In this document: positions 3,015 through 8,541 of the stretch, one piece after another
Layout of the letters: each line of letters begins with the position of its first letter
Position numbering within the stretch: the stretch's first letter is position 1
UHGV virus genome: UHGV-0377831
Source of the DNA: a virus
Strand: one strand, 5' to 3'
Length of the DNA stretch: 32,832 nucleotides
Made by a program: the position numbers and the translations under genes
The notes under the pieces: model-generated
Seen by the model: only the letters and a program-made list of their open reading frames with translations
Databases searched by the model: none
What the model was told of the DNA's origin: nothing

Positions 3015-3090
3015 GGCCCTTTAGCTCAGTGGTGAGAGCGAGCGACTCATAATCGCCAGGTCGCTGGTTCAAATCCAGCAAGGGCCACCA
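3015..3090 (+). tRNA. tRNA with anticodon CAU, most similar to tRNA-Ile2 (ileX/ileZ type); tRNA-Met not excluded
   Basis: Cloverleaf: acceptor GGCCCTT/AAGGGCC, D-stem GCTC/GAGC, anticodon loop CTCATAA, T-loop TTCAAAT, encoded CCA. Near-identical to E. coli ileX as I recall it. Confidence 0.88.
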
Positions 3091-3097
3091 TCACATA

Positions 3098-3174
3098 CCG
3101 CCATTAGCTCATCAGGAAAGAGCGCCAGCCTTCGAAGCTGGCTGCGCGGGGTTCAAGTCCCCGATGGCGGTCCA
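3098..3174 (+). tRNA. tRNA-Arg (anticodon UCG)
   Basis: Acceptor CCGCCAT/ATGGCGG, anticodon stem CCAGC/GCTGG with loop CTTCGAA, T-arm CGGGG-TTCAAGT-CCCCG, encoded CCA. Confidence 0.85.
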
Positions 3175-3187
3175 TTATCTGCATCAT

Positions 3188-3264
3188 GCGTTGTTAGCTC
3201 AGCCGGACAGAGCAATTGCCTTCTAAGCAATCGGTCACTGGTTCGAATCCAGTACAGCGCGCCA
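3188..3264 (+). tRNA. tRNA-Arg (anticodon UCU, decodes rare AGA/AGG)
   Basis: Acceptor GCGTTGT/ACAGCGC, anticodon stem ATTGC/GCAAT with loop CTTCTAA, T-arm ACTGG-TTCGAAT-CCAGT, encoded CCA. Same Ile/Arg/Arg tRNA trio and position as in Stx-type lambdoid phages. Confidence 0.88.
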
Positions 3265-3895: not shown

Positions 3896-4120
3896 CCGGG
3901 TATCAGTTAGCGGGAGAAATTTTTAAATACTTCACAATTCAGGCGGTTGACTGTTGTCTGGTTTGCGGGGAGTTTGTTAAAAGAAACTGGCATGGTGAAT
4001 CCCCCTGTGCGGAGGGGCAATCAGCGAGTAGGTATATGGGATAATCGCGGATTCAGGTGCTGGTACTGAATTCACCGGGAGGCACCCGGCACCATGCAAT
4101 GGCACATAGCGCCACTCTCC

Positions 4121-4150
4121 AGCCCCTCTCCGGAGGGGCTGTTTATATTG
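4121..4150 (+). terminator. Strong hairpin with T-rich tail (rho-independent terminator-like)
   Basis: Perfect 8-bp stem AGCCCCTC/GAGGGGCT with loop TCCG, followed by GTTTATATTGATTTTG. A related weaker hairpin (CCCCT...AGGGG) lies at 4002-4017. Confidence 0.55.
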
Positions 4151-4175: not shown

Positions 4176-4511
4176 TTATGGACTTTGTTGTTTTAGCCCA
4201 TAAGGACATATTTGCAGAGTGCAACGGTTATTAAAGCATTCATTCAATACGTTATCTGTATTTGTAGGGCATTCCTGGCTGTTTTTGATTAAATTCCAGA
4301 ATGTTTTATTGAATGGTACTACGTTGTAAATGGTTACAGGTAGCACTTTGTTATTGAGCATGATACCTGTGTGAGTCAGTGTAAATATACTTTCAGGAGG
4401 TAAGAAAGCATCCGATTGATACCAGATTATTAATTTTATTTTACTCCATATGACTGAAAAAGATATTCCGCATGATGGCTGGATAACTGTATCAATCACA
4501 ATCCACTTCAT
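4176..4511 (-). CDS. Hypothetical protein, AT-rich cargo gene on the opposite strand to the late operon
   Basis: 111-aa ORF with ATG start and an AAGGAAA RBS about 6 nt upstream on the minus strand; markedly lower GC than the flanks; product not recognised. Confidence 0.5.
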
Positions 4512-4771
4512 TTAGTTTCCTTGTTTATGCCTTGCTGGTGATGTTCTGAAAAGTATAAATGATATTTTTGATTGTAAACCATAGAGCAGAATTATTTTTC
4601 TGATGTTGTTTATTGTTTATTTAAATGCAGGGTGGTTTATATCTCGTCTTGTAGTTTATCCATGCATATCTGCTTGATGATGAAGTTTTTAATTAAGGTA
4701 TGGTTTTGTGTTTTTTCTGTATTACATGTCAGGTATTTTAAAGAATCATTTTTCAGATGGTGGAAAGAACC

Positions 4772-4960
4772 ATGGCATTTAAACACTATGATGTTGTCAG
4801 GGCGGCGTCGCCGTCAGATCTTGCGGAAAAGCTGACACATAAACTGAAAGAGGGCTGGCAGCCGTTTGGTAGTCCGGTGGCCATAACCCCTTATACCCTG
4901 ATGCAGGCGATTGCAGCAGAAGGTGATGTGGTGGTCAGTGGTGCAACTGAGCCGGAGTGA
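4772..4960 (+). CDS. Small DUF1737-like phage protein
   Basis: 62-aa product MAFKHYDVVRAASPSDLAEKLTHKLKEGWQPFG... resembles the DUF1737 domain found alone or at the N-terminus of NanS-p esterases next to the lysis genes of Stx-type prophages (from memory). An alternative ATG lies at 4757. Confidence 0.6.
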   Translation: MAFKHYDVVRAASPSDLAEKLTHKLKEGWQPFGSPVAITPYTLMQAIAAEGDVVVSGATEPE

Positions 4961-5118
4961 TACTACGTCATCGTACTGGCCCGGCATTCCAGGCCATAAA
5001 AGACGGTCTGGCAGTGGGACTAAATGCACTGACGCTGACGGATATTACCAAAAATGCAACGTATGGCGTTGAGATGGAAAGTCTGGTGCTGGAGATAAAT
5101 GCACCGGCATCATCATAA
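4957..5118 (+). CDS. Possible small ORF (53 aa, GTG start) between the DUF1737-like gene and the holin
   Basis: Open frame ending at TAA 5116-5118; no ATG start and no clear RBS; may be a remnant or a small late-region ORF. Confidence 0.2.
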
Positions 5119-5267: not shown

Positions 5268-5483
5268 ATGTACCAGATGGAAAAAATCACAACAGGTGTG
5301 TCATACACCACGTCAGCGGTGGGAACGGGCTACTGGTTCCTGCAGTTGCTGGACAGGGTTTCCCCGTCTCAGTGGGCGGCAATAGGCGTGCTGGGGAGTC
5401 TGCTGTTTGGGCTGCTGACATATCTGACTAACCTGTATTTCAAAATCAAAGAGGACCGGCGTAAGGCGGCGCGGGGAGAGTAA
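5268..5483 (+). CDS. S: Class II holin (pinholin), phage 21 S type, with dual-start motif
   Basis: [71 protein letters not shown] matches S21/Stx-phage holins; two Met codons (M1, M4) typical of holin/antiholin dual starts. The upstream extension in the ORF track (5163-5267) is probably not translated. Confidence 0.9.
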
Positions 5484-5487
5484 AGTG

Positions 5488-6378
5488 ATGAATAAAAAAT
5501 ATGAACTGGTTGTTAAGGGGATAAATAATTACGGGGATAAGGTTACTGTTACTGTGAAGCCGGAAGGTGACGGGCAAGCGTCGCTGTTGTTGCCAGATGT
5601 GGCGATTAGTCTTGACCGTACTGAAGGTGCCACGCTGGAGTTTTACGAAGCTGAGGCGAAAAAGCAGGCGAAGCAGTTTTTCATGGATGTTGCTGCCGGG
5701 TTATGTGAAGGGGATGGTCCGTTGCCGGAAAAGCGCCCCGTAATTTTAGAGGCGCAGGATGTGTTGATAACCTACAAAGGAAAGCTACCGGGAAGAATTA
5801 CTTGTTCTCTGAAGATGCCGCCGTCAACACTGCGGTCAGAAAAAGATGATGTTGAATCACGTATTGAAAAACTGGAGAGCTACGTCGTTGAGCTGAATAA
5901 GAAATGGTCGATATTGGTGCCTTCTGGCGATGAAAAGCAGTTTGCTGCGTTTGACGATTATTGTCGGAAAGTGATGAGCAGAAATCTCGCAGAGTGTTTC
6001 AGTATTCATAATGATAATTTCAGTGACCCGGAATGGGAGTGTAACCGGCCATCCTTTGTTGTATCCGGTGATGCTGGGAAAATAACCATCTCAGAAAATG
6101 GGAAAGTAACACCTCCATCGCACCAGCACAGTGAGGAGCTCATTGAATTTGCCATTGATTACCTGAAGAACAATAAAAAGCAGGGGCTGATGAAGCGCGT
6201 TGGCCGTTGCATGGGATATCTGCAGGTAGCTGCTGAGATTGAAGCGCTGGCCAGTGGTGCTGATAAGGATGCAATTGTGCGGGAGGCTCTTCTTCGTGAT
6301 TTTAATACTCCACCCTTTAAAAAAGTGCCGGCTTACTGGCTTCATCCGGGGCTGACTTATCTTAAAGTGCGTATTTAG
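5488..6378 (+). CDS. Hypothetical 296-aa soluble protein inserted between holin and endolysin
   Basis: ATG at 5488 (GTG at 5485) with a GGGGAGAG RBS 8 nt upstream; starts 4 nt after the holin stop; no signal peptide, transmembrane segment or recognisable catalytic motif; AT-rich 5' end. Confidence 0.7.
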   Translation: MNKKYELVVKGINNYGDKVTVTVKPEGDGQASLLLPDVAISLDRTEGATLEFYEAEAKKQAKQFFMDVAAGLCEGDGPLPEKRPVILEAQDVLITYKGKLPGRITCSLKMPPSTLRSEKDDVESRIEKLESYVVELNKKWSILVPSGDEKQFAAFDDYCRKVMSRNLAECFSIHNDNFSDPEWECNRPSFVVSGDAGKITISENGKVTPPSHQHSEELIEFAIDYLKNNKKQGLMKRVGRCMGYLQVAAEIEALASGADKDAIVREALLRDFNTPPFKKVPAYWLHPGLTYLKVRI

Positions 6379-6414
6379 TGGGCCAGGGACAGCGGCTGAA
6401 TATTTAATATATCC

Positions 6415-6948
6415 ATGAACACCAAAATCAAATACGGCCTGTCGGCTGCCGTTCTGGCGCTGATTGCCGCTGGTGCGCCTGCGCCTGACATTCTCGACCA
6501 GTTTCTGGATGAAAAGGAAGGCAAGCACACCACAGCATACCGTGATGGTGCAGGTATCTGGACCATCTGCCGTGGTGCCATCATGGTGGATGGCAAACCT
6601 GTCGTTCCGGGCATGAAGTTGTCGAAGGAAAAATGCGACCAGGTTAACGCCATTGAGCGTGATAAAGCGCTGGCGTGGGTGGAGAAAAACATCAGAGTGC
6701 CGCTGACCGAACCCCAGAAAGCGGGGATCGCGTCATTCTGTCCGTACAACATTGGTCCCGGTAAGTGTTTCCCGTCGACGTTTTACAGACGAATTAATGC
6801 TGGTGATCGAAAAGGTGCCTGCGAAGCGATTCGCTGGTGGATTAAGGACGGTGGCAGAGACTGCCGTATTCGTTCAAACAACTGTTACGGTCAGGTATCC
6901 CGTCGTGACCAGGAGAGCGCGCTGGCGTGCTGGGGTATCGACAGATAA
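6415..6948 (+). CDS. R: SAR endolysin (phage lysozyme, RrrQ/YdfQ-like)
   Basis: 177-aa protein with an N-terminal signal-anchor-release segment (GLSAAVLALIAAGAPAP) and the lysozyme motif EGKHTTAYRDGAGIWTICRG; closely resembles the E. coli Qin prophage lysozyme as I recall it. Confidence 0.92.
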   Translation: MNTKIKYGLSAAVLALIAAGAPAPDILDQFLDEKEGKHTTAYRDGAGIWTICRGAIMVDGKPVVPGMKLSKEKCDQVNAIERDKALAWVEKNIRVPLTEPQKAGIASFCPYNIGPGKCFPSTFYRRINAGDRKGACEAIRWWIKDGGRDCRIRSNNCYGQVSRRDQESALACWGIDR

Positions 6949-7104: not shown

Positions 7105-7287
7105 ATGGCGAAGTGTAAACGAATTCTGTTGAGGTTGACTATGAAAAATGGCCTTGAACTGAAAGCGCCTGTAACTGATGACATCAGCAGAGCACTGGCT
7201 TTTGCCATTAAGTGGGTGGCGGTCGGTGTTGCTGTGTCCCCGATGCTGTATGGGCTGGCAAAACTGGTCATTGCGTTGAAATCGTGA
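7105..7287 (+). CDS. Small hypothetical membrane protein (60 aa)
   Basis: ATG with an AAGGGAG RBS; hydrophobic segment [27 protein letters not shown]. The ORF track starts it at an upstream GTG (7072). Confidence 0.45.
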
Positions 7288-7301: not shown

Positions 7302-7433
7302 ATGTCAGACAAACTCATAACGCTGGCGAAGATCCTCTGTGTAATTGTCGGCATTTCATTTTCACTAATGCTGGTTGCTCTTTTTCTTTCCATGGCCTGG
7401 ATGATGTTGTCTTCGTCGGGGTTGCTGGGGTGA
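7302..7433 (+). CDS. Small hypothetical single-pass membrane protein (43 aa)
   Basis: ATG at 7302 with a strong GAAGGGAGG RBS; product [43 protein letters not shown]; its stop overlaps the Rz start. Confidence 0.5.
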
Positions 7434-8214: not shown

Positions 8215-8541
8215 ATGAAAAGACGCCTTTTACTACTTTTTCTGTTATCTGTCCTGGCAGTGGGATGCTCGCAGCAAAAAGCTGATGAGCCCCGGCAATT
8301 AGTGACGGTGTATCCACGATATCCGGAATATGCTGCAGCAAATTATATCAAGGGGCTGGTTGAGGTTAAGTTCGATATTGGTGCTGATGGGACTGTGACA
8401 CGGATCGTTTTTCTCCGCTCAGAGCCTCATAATTTGTTTCGTGATGAAGTGGTGAAGGCCATGGCGAAATGGCGATTTGAAAAGAATCGCCCCTGTCAGG
8501 GAGTGAAGAGACAATTTATCTTTACGCCGTCACGTCCTTGA
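8215..8541 (+). CDS. Small lipoprotein with a TonB C-terminal-like domain (moron)
   Basis: Signal peptide with lipobox (MKRRLLLLFLLSVLAVGC); the remainder (YPRYPEYAAANYIKGLVEVKFDIGADGTVTRIVFLRSEPHNLFRDEVVKAMAKWRF) matches the TonB C-terminal domain pattern. Confidence 0.7.
   Translation: MKRRLLLLFLLSVLAVGCSQQKADEPRQLVTVYPRYPEYAAANYIKGLVEVKFDIGADGTVTRIVFLRSEPHNLFRDEVVKAMAKWRFEKNRPCQGVKRQFIFTPSRP

What the first reader, a model, noticed from the sequence alone, without database searches (positions are those of the whole stretch)
5488..6378. Uncharacterised 296-aa gene inserted inside the lysis cassette, between pinholin and SAR endolysin
In phage-21-type lysis cassettes the pinholin and SAR endolysin genes are normally adjacent. 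Here an 891-bp gene with its own strong RBS sits between them, starting 4 nt after the holin stop. The product is soluble (no signal peptide or transmembrane segment) and matches nothing I recognise. It would be co-expressed with lysis proteins from the late promoter, so it could be a lysis regulator, a host-takeover or defence protein, or a selfish moron.
Basis: partly seen in the sequence, partly recalled or inferred. Interest (0 to 1): 0.75.

Follow-up and report, generated by a model that had tools for sequence, protein, structure and literature searches.

The report
Long-form YdfR prophage gene after holin
The gene between the holin and the endolysin is real, but it belongs to the YdfR/DUF1327 family of E. 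coli prophage proteins, which usually occupies this position and has no established function.

Summary
An intact 296-codon ORF lies at 5488-6378 (+). It starts 4 nt after the stop of the P21-type holin, has a GGAG ribosome-binding site, and has no membrane segment.

The claim that it is unusual and matches nothing does not hold:
- Residues 1-100 match Pfam DUF1327 (E=4e-40), and the whole protein matches PHROG 1085.
- RefSeq names it 'YdfR family protein'.
- E. coli K-12 has the same layout, essQ-ydfR-rrrQ.
- In 71 viral contigs with this holin, 59 carry a YdfR-family gene in the slot and 12 have it empty.

New here: this is a long, modular form.
- It consists of a DUF1327 N-domain, a disordered linker, a helical hairpin and a conserved 114-residue C-domain.
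- The C-domain has no Pfam model and no significant structural match, and evolves under purifying selection (dN/dS about 0.19).
- The modules also occur alone, fused or in swapped order. The fused form also occurs in Salmonella prophages.

The only experimental lead is that residues 1-72 of K-12 YdfR bind the catalytic half of RNase E. My best guess (about 0.35) is a non-essential late protein that links host RNase E or RNA to an unknown partner. It is an ordinary, already catalogued gene of unknown function.

The parts
5268..5483 (+). P21-type class II holin (pinholin family). This is context: the gene immediately upstream.
   Evidence: PF04971 E=7.2e-33 and PHROG holin. The N-terminus MYQMEKIT has Met1 and Met4, as in a dual-start motif.
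5475..5478 (+). Shine-Dalgarno GGAG for the YdfR-like gene, lying inside the last codons of the holin gene.
   Evidence: Read directly from the sequence. It is 9 nt upstream of the ATG at 5488.
5488..6378 (+). Long-form YdfR family gene, 296 aa plus stop.
   Evidence: ORF. PHROG 1085 matches 1-296 of 296, E=2e-188. A 100% identical copy occurs in many E. coli chromosomes, named 'YdfR family protein'. The exact protein is seen on at least 1000 contigs.
5488..5715 (+). N-domain (aa 1-76), DUF1327. The fold is three beta strands followed by a long helix.
   Evidence: PF07041 E=4e-40. 47% identical to K-12 YdfR over 70 residues. AlphaFold strands at 5-14, 18-27 and 38-43 and a helix at 50-73. dN/dS is about 0.57.
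5716..5823 (+). Linker (aa 77-112), basic and predicted disordered.
   Evidence: pLDDT is below 50 for residues 73-119. pI is 9.4 for residues 77-120.
5824..6000 (+). Helical hairpin or coiled-coil segment (aa 113-171). This is where variable inserts occur in homologues.
   Evidence: Helices at 113-146 and 149-171. Homologues of 325-333 aa carry insertions here.
6034..6375 (+). Conserved C-domain (aa 183-296): three short beta strands followed by four helices. It is in no Pfam model.
   Evidence: AlphaFold pLDDT 88.6, pTM 0.81. Sixteen columns are invariant between the E. coli and Salmonella homologues. dN/dS is 0.19. No Pfam, NCBIfam or PADLOC match. No significant structural match.
6415..6948 (+). 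Endolysin with a SAR-type N-terminus. This is context: the gene immediately downstream.
   Evidence: PF00959 E=2.8e-24 and PHROG 7 endolysin. RefSeq names it rrrQ/lysozyme.

Best explanation
**Identity (near certain).** This is the long form of the YdfR/DUF1327 family, a non-essential accessory gene of Escherichia, Shigella and Salmonella lambdoid prophages. It takes the translationally coupled position right after the pinholin gene and is transcribed only as part of the Q-dependent late operon.

**Mechanism (inferred, about 0.35).**
- The N-terminal DUF1327 domain docks onto the catalytic half of host RNase E, as shown for residues 1-72 of K-12 YdfR.
- The helical hairpin makes the protein oligomerise.
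- The basic linker and the conserved basic C-domain bind a second partner, either RNA or a protein.
- The protein would therefore act as an adaptor or modulator of RNA decay late in infection, rather than as a component of the lysis machinery.

**Shown:** family membership, position, domain layout, purifying selection on the C-domain, and dispensability of the gene among prophages that carry the same holin.

**Inferred:** RNase E binding by this allele, oligomerisation, the C-domain partner, and any effect on RNA.
For: **Family and position**
- DUF1327 E=4e-40 and a full-length PHROG 1085 match; RefSeq name 'YdfR family protein'.
- K-12 Qin has essQ-ydfR-rrrQ with the same 4-nt junction.
- The slot is occupied in 59 of 71 contigs with this holin.

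**RNase E link**
- K-12 YdfR residues 1-72 bind RNase E 1-597 in a bacterial two-hybrid assay.
- Strep-tagged YdfR co-purifies RNase E 1-598 and RNA (PMC13232886).
- The window's N-domain is 47% identical to K-12 YdfR over that stretch.
- Sister alleles of 296 aa carry an N-domain that resembles K-12 YdfR more closely, on a C-part nearly identical to the window's.

**Two functional modules**
- The hairpin-plus-C-domain part occurs alone (185-213 aa).
- The N part occurs alone (86-176 aa).
- The two occur fused, or as separate genes in swapped order.
- The fused layout is also found in Salmonella prophages. hhalign of the E. coli against the Salmonella N-domains gives 88% probability, E=3e-6.
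- C-domain dN/dS is 0.19. pI is 9.1 for the C-terminal part (aa 191-296) and 9.4 for aa 77-120.

**Late expression only**
- No sigma-70-like promoter lies on the + strand before the gene.
- K-12 ydfR gave almost no RNA-seq reads under standard growth.
Against: - RNase E binding rests on one paper and on the short K-12 protein.
- In that paper, overproduction of YdfR changed few transcripts and did not slow growth. This argues against strong global inhibition of an essential enzyme.
- The RNA co-purification could come from a contaminant, as the authors themselves caution.
- The N-domain is acidic (pI 4.7) and evolves fast (dN/dS about 0.57, up to 1.47). That is odd for a domain that binds a highly conserved host enzyme.
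- No structure prediction of a complex was possible with these tools.
Confidence: 0.35

Rival explanations
1. It is a lysis-timing regulator. The protein is made in fixed ratio with the pinholin through translational coupling, and it modulates holin triggering or SAR-endolysin release from the cytoplasmic side.
For: - It sits inside the lysis cassette, 4 nt after the holin stop, and displaces the endolysin from the coupled position.
- The family is nearly always found within or just upstream of lysis cassettes, including in Salmonella.
- According to PMC13232886, an envelope-integrity screen flagged K-12 ydfR.
Against: - It has no membrane segment or signal peptide, unlike known antiholins.
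- Twelve of 71 contigs with a 99-100% identical holin have no such gene, and the slot content varies freely while the holin stays constant.
- In Salmonella the homologue lies upstream of the holin, once with a different holin family, PF16080.
- The envelope phenotype of a ydfR deletion could be a polar effect on rrrQ (my inference).
Confidence: 0.15
2. It is a conflict gene: a defence, anti-defence or superinfection-exclusion cargo carried in a variable hot spot of the late operon.
For: - GC is lower than in the neighbours: 46.5% against 54%, and GC3 46.5% against 60-68%.
- The slot is highly mosaic and multi-allelic, with presence/absence variation.
- The N-domain evolves fast, with dN/dS 0.57 and some pairs above 1.
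- Salmonella homologues sit in the Q-to-holin cargo region next to a toxin-like gene or a HicAB pair.
Against: - There is no significant PADLOC match; the best is E=0.018 over a 64-residue stretch.
- No own promoter was found, so it would not be expressed in a lysogen.
- Late expression is the wrong time for anti-defence.
- There is no recognisable enzymatic or sensor domain.
Confidence: 0.2
3. It is a functionless passenger: a recombination scar or decaying mosaic filler that persists only because it sits between two recombination-prone junctions.
For: - PGAP treats it as a truncated pseudogene.
- Many relatives are truncated, and a few are split into fragments, for example L101 and L104.
- K-12 keeps only the N-domain.
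Against: - The ORF is intact here and in hundreds of genomes.
- C-domain dN/dS is 0.19 over 241 pairs.
- Sixteen columns are invariant between the E. coli and Salmonella homologues, at 31-41% overall identity.
- The fold prediction is confident, pLDDT 88.6.
Confidence: 0.08

Closest known systems
YdfR of the E. coli K-12 cryptic prophage Qin (P76160; Pfam PF07041 DUF1327)
   Same: The N-domain is homologous, 47% identical over 70 residues. The genomic position is identical, between the class II holin essQ and the lysozyme rrrQ, starting 4 nt after the holin stop.
   Different: K-12 YdfR is 103 aa, consisting of the N-domain plus a short basic tail. The window protein adds a linker, a helical hairpin and a 114-residue conserved C-domain. 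The RNase E binding shown for K-12 YdfR has not been tested for this allele.
PHROG 1085, and orf5 of Stx2-converting phage 86 and the Stx2_95 hypothetical protein
   Same: Full-length homologues with the same slot and the same domain order.
   Different: None in kind. They differ by alleles of the N-domain and by inserts in the hairpin region (329-330 aa forms). All are annotated as hypothetical.
Split arrangement in Stx prophages: a 213-aa C-module protein followed by a 75-aa DUF1327 protein
   Same: The same two modules in the same holin-endolysin slot.
   Different: The modules are separate genes in the opposite order, followed by a convergent small ORF that the window lacks.
Phage proteins that act on RNase E: phiKZ Dip (PMC4980113), T4 Srd and T7 gp0.7 (the last two from my own knowledge)
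   Same: Possible functional analogy: a phage protein that binds host RNase E.
   Different: No sequence or structural similarity to any solved structure was found. Dip binds the RNA-binding segments of the scaffold half of RNase E, whereas YdfR binds the catalytic half. No effect of YdfR on RNA decay has been shown.
RapZ, a host adaptor that binds the RNase E catalytic domain and an sRNA (PMC7430671)
   Same: It behaved like YdfR in the same two-hybrid and co-purification assays, and RNA co-purified with both. The proposed adaptor logic is the same.
   Different: No homology. RapZ has a defined RNA partner (GlmZ), and none is known for YdfR.

Membership tests
YdfR / DUF1327 (Pfam PF07041) | Match to the family HMM above its gathering score | tested here: met
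   136.4 bits against a cut-off of 25, E=4e-40, residues 1-100.
YdfR / DUF1327 (Pfam PF07041) | Location in a lambdoid prophage directly after a class II holin and before the lysozyme | tested here: met
   Same order and same 4-nt junction as K-12 essQ-ydfR-rrrQ. Found in 59 of 71 holin-anchored contigs.
YdfR / DUF1327 (Pfam PF07041) | Binding of the N-terminal ~72 residues to the RNase E catalytic half. This is the only experimental property reported for the family. | not testable with these tools
   Reported for K-12 YdfR only (PMC13232886). The window allele is 47% identical over that stretch.
PHROG 1085 (long-form YdfR) | End-to-end match to the 296-position profile | tested here: met
   Residues 1-296 match profile positions 1-296, E=2.2e-188.
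Antiholins and membrane-acting lysis regulators (S21-71, LydB, T4 RI) | A membrane segment, a signal sequence or a periplasmic domain that contacts the holin | tested here: not met
   The maximum 19-residue hydropathy is 0.75, there is no N-terminal hydrophobic stretch, and the predicted fold is soluble.
Antiholins and membrane-acting lysis regulators (S21-71, LydB, T4 RI) | Strict co-occurrence with its holin | tested here: not met
   Twelve of 71 contigs with a 99-100% identical holin lack it. Salmonella homologues lie upstream of the holin, once with a different holin family.
Moron (independently expressed prophage cargo gene) | Base composition unlike the flanking genes, and variable presence among related phages | tested here: met
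   GC 46.5% against 54%, GC3 46.5% against 60-68%. Presence/absence and allele variation.
Moron (independently expressed prophage cargo gene) | Its own promoter and terminator | tested here: not met
   No + strand promoter-like site lies between 3810 and the gene. The only nearby terminator-like hairpin on the + strand (6337-6354) lies inside the ORF and is weak. This is a consensus scan only.
Known anti-phage defence systems (PADLOC-DB) | Significant match to a defence-protein model | tested here: not met
   The best hit is PbeC, E=0.018 for the full protein and 0.0086 for the C-terminal part, 11-12 bits over about 60 residues.
Structurally known RNase E modulators (phiKZ Dip and others in the PDB) | Sequence or fold similarity | tested here: not met

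The most novel reading that the evidence does not exclude
The long-form YdfR is a two-headed adaptor made in step with the pinholin. Its N-domain holds RNase E and its conserved C-domain holds a specific RNA or protein. In this way it retunes RNA decay, for example by protecting the long late transcript or destroying a host message, in the minutes before lysis. The free-standing N and C modules of other prophages would then be split versions of the same system. The C-domain would be a new RNA- or protein-binding fold.
Probability: 0.2. Interest if true: 0.6.

Novelty: already known. Interest (0 to 1): 0.3.

Why it matters
YdfR-family DNA is found in 3084 of 5426 complete E. coli genomes, with a median of two copies in the genomes that have it. 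It also sits next to the lysis genes of many Shiga-toxin phages. Even so, no function has been established for it.

- If the RNase E link is real, it would be one of few known cases of a temperate-phage protein acting on the catalytic half of RNase E.
- It could also bear on the timing of toxin release and lysis.

There is one practical point. RefSeq annotates this intact gene as a 336-bp pseudogene, which hides a conserved C-terminal domain from family databases.

As a scan finding it is ordinary. The gene, its family and its position are all already catalogued.

Tried and rejected
- **Weak coat-protein resemblance.** The N-domain has weak Foldseek similarity to levivirus and PP7 coat proteins (E 0.5-1.5). 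I considered this as an RNA-binding lead and rejected it as not significant.
- **Sequence profiles against the PDB.** The best E-value was 0.05.
- **Family libraries for the C-domain.** Pfam, NCBIfam and PADLOC gave nothing. DUF6200 was hit by 3 of 17 members at E of 0.006 or worse, well below its cut-off.
- **Exhaustive HMMER search.** Only 74 representatives were found among 1.84 billion proteins, and none has an informative extra domain. A profile search with the C-domain added nothing beyond Escherichia, Shigella and Salmonella hypothetical proteins.
- **Genome-contig scan.** It returned only 3 loci.
- **Convergent small ORFs.** Those next to the E. coli and Salmonella homologues are not detectably related to each other (BLASTP E=15).
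- **Antisense ORF at 6091-6528 (-).** It has no PHROG match and was treated as spurious.
- **Literature.** I found no paper on the gene in the holin-endolysin slot of Stx phages.

Full report
**1. The observation**

The window has an intact ORF at 5488-6378 on the + strand, 296 codons plus TAG.
- The upstream gene (5268-5483) is a P21-type class II holin (PF04971, E=7e-33). Its stop TAA is at 5481-5483, so the ORF begins 4 nt later.
- A GGAG lies 9 nt before the ATG.
- The downstream gene (6415-6948) is a phage lysozyme with a SAR-like N-terminus. Rz and an embedded Rz1 follow.
- The product has no hydrophobic segment; the maximum 19-residue Kyte-Doolittle mean is 0.75.

The description and the coordinates are correct.

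**2. What it is**

The statement that it matches nothing is wrong.
- Residues 1-100 match Pfam DUF1327 (PF07041) at E=4e-40.
- The whole protein matches PHROG 1085 end to end at E=2e-188.
- The same 891 bp occur at 100% identity in many E. coli chromosomes, under the name 'YdfR family protein'.
- Part of the gene matches in 3084 of 5426 complete E. coli genomes, and at least 80% of it in 496.
- The exact protein is recorded on at least 1000 contigs.
- In E. coli K-12 the cryptic prophage Qin has essQ (holin), ydfR and rrrQ (lysozyme) in the same order, and ydfR also starts 4 nt after the holin stop.

**3. How usual the position is**

I took the 80 viral contigs whose holin is 97-100% identical to the window's. 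Of these, 71 also contained the downstream lysozyme.
- In 12 the holin and the endolysin are adjacent. The endolysin ATG then sits 4 nt after the holin stop, in the very place the YdfR-like gene occupies here.
- In 59 the slot holds a YdfR-family gene:
  - about 33 have the N-domain with or without the linker only (86-176 aa);
  - about 14 have the full N-linker-C form (268-328 aa; nine are 296 aa as in the window);
  - about 8 have the hairpin plus C-domain without any DUF1327 domain (about 185 aa);
  - one has a C-module gene followed by a separate DUF1327 gene, and one a C-module gene alone;
  - a few look disrupted.

The occupied slot is therefore the common state for this holin type in E. 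coli prophages. The gene is not needed for the cassette to exist.

**4. Anatomy**

AlphaFold, run with a 23-sequence alignment, gives these parts:
- an N-domain of three strands and a long helix (residues 5-73, pLDDT about 70-90);
- a disordered basic linker (73-119);
- two long helices (113-171);
- a C-domain (190-296).

Modelled alone with 17 diverse sequences, the C-domain is confident: pLDDT 88.6, pTM 0.81, three short strands followed by four helices.

The C-domain has 16 invariant columns between the E. coli and Salmonella homologues, which are 31-41% identical overall. In full-protein numbering these are H214, I223, L226, G239, R240, L245, Q246, A248, A249, P276, K278, W284, P287, G288, Y291 and L292.

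The C-domain matches nothing known:
- no Pfam, NCBIfam or PADLOC model;
- no PDB sequence;

**5. Evolution**

- An exhaustive HMMER search of 1.84 billion representatives found only 74 relatives.
- The named relatives are from Escherichia and Shigella, and the named distant ones from Salmonella enterica prophages; other distant relatives come from unnamed sequencing-run assemblies.
- Most of the distant relatives also have an N-terminal domain, and profile comparison identifies it as a divergent DUF1327 (hhalign 88%, E=3e-6). The fused architecture is therefore shared by E. coli and Salmonella prophages, which suggests it is old, and the short K-12 protein may be a reduced form.
- In the Salmonella prophages examined the gene lies between the Q antiterminator and the holin. 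In one locus it follows a toxin-like gene and in another a HicAB pair. A related unnamed contig has it two genes upstream of the holin.
- In Stx prophages the two modules are separate genes in the opposite order: a 213-aa C-module gene, then a 75-aa DUF1327 gene.
- N-domain alleles are swapped onto nearly identical C-parts.
- Nei-Gojobori estimates give a median dN/dS of 0.19 for the C-domain (241 pairs) and 0.57 for the N-domain (61 pairs, maximum 1.47). The counts are small and recombination is rife, so these numbers are indicative only.
- GC is 46.5% (GC3 46.5%), against 54% (GC3 60-68%) in the holin and the endolysin.
- No sigma-70-like promoter precedes the gene on its strand.

**6. Function**

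The only experiments I found are on K-12 YdfR.
- A genomic two-hybrid screen recovered residues 1-72 as a binder of RNase G and RNase E.
- The full-length protein gave a signal with RNase E 1-597.
- Strep-YdfR co-purified RNase E 1-598 and DNase-resistant nucleic acid.
- Overproduction changed few transcripts and did not affect growth.
- The gene was silent under standard conditions (PMC13232886).
- An overexpression screen listed ydfR among genes that raise the streptomycin MIC threefold (PMC12924614).

Putting this with the anatomy, my best model is an oligomeric late protein. Its N-domain docks on the catalytic half of RNase E, and its basic linker and C-domain engage a second partner. It would be an adaptor or modulator rather than a global inhibitor. 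I put this at about 0.35.

Points against the model:
- the mild overexpression phenotype;
- the acidic, fast-evolving N-domain;
- complete ignorance of what the C-domain does.

**7. Rivals**

- **Lysis-timing regulator (0.15).** It fits the position. It does not fit the lack of any membrane element, the free variation of the slot behind a constant holin, or the Salmonella positions.
- **Conflict gene (0.2).** It fits the composition, the mosaicism and the fast N-domain. There is no defence-model match, no promoter for expression in lysogens, and the timing is late.
- **Functionless passenger (0.08).** It conflicts with purifying selection on the C-domain, its conservation between E. coli and Salmonella homologues, and its confident fold.

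**8. Verdict**

This is a real gene, correctly located, but already catalogued (DUF1327/YdfR, PHROG 1085) and in its usual place. The modest additions from this work are:
- the modular reading of the long form;
- a conserved C-domain that has no family model;
- the finding that RefSeq annotates this intact gene as a 336-bp pseudogene.

Interest 0.3.

Noticed in passing
window 5488-6378; L001 9001-9336; L176 1201-1536: RefSeq/PGAP annotates this intact 296-codon ORF as a pseudogene that covers only its first 336 bp ('YdfR family protein, missing C-terminus'). This leaves the conserved C-terminal 185 codons unannotated.
   Followed up: yes
window 7105-7287 and 7302-7433 (+): Two small hydrophobic ORFs (60 and 43 aa) sit between the endolysin and Rz. 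They match PHROG 1115 and PHROG 4906, both of unknown function. This is a second insertion inside the lysis cassette, and these may be membrane proteins.
   Followed up: partly
window 4757-4960 and 4957-5118 (+): Two short ORFs match the N-terminal and C-terminal ends of the 634-position PHROG 143. RefSeq calls the first a partial DUF1737 protein. They look like the remnant of a NanS-p-type esterase gene after an internal deletion.
   Followed up: partly
window 3961-4150 (+): Full-length match to the Rfam sRNA family STnc100 (132 bits, gathering score 47), lying between the tRNA cluster and the IraM-like gene.
   Followed up: no
window 3015-3264 (+): Three tRNA genes lie downstream of the Q antiterminator, with anticodons CAT, TCG and TCT. 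RefSeq labels the CAT one tRNA-Ile and ARAGORN labels it tRNA-Met.
   Followed up: no
window 4176-4511 (-): An IraM-like gene (anti-adapter protein, PHROG 4407) lies on the opposite strand inside the late region, upstream of the lysis cassette.
   Followed up: no
window 8215-8541 (+): The labels conflict for the gene after Rz. RefSeq calls it 'TonB family protein', while PHROG 1267 is annotated 'Rz-like spanin'.
   Followed up: no
L005 5902-6252 (-); L102 2812-3084 (-); L092 5599-5916 (-); L094 5807-6124 (-); L007 2378-2713 (-): In many related loci a small convergent ORF (90-116 aa) follows the YdfR-type gene. The Salmonella and L007 copies are clearly homologous to each other. The E. coli and Salmonella versions are not detectably related (BLASTP E=15). 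The window has no such ORF.
   Followed up: partly
L102 3190-3735 (+): In this viral contig the N-terminal part of the endolysin is fused in frame to the C-terminal part of Rz. This is apparently a deletion that would disable the lysis cassette.
   Followed up: no
L092 3157-4469 (+): In a Salmonella prophage, two genes precede the YdfR-family homologue. The first has faint Pertussis_S1 and Scabin-like hits, suggesting an ADP-ribosyltransferase toxin in the same cargo region between Q and the holin.
   Followed up: no
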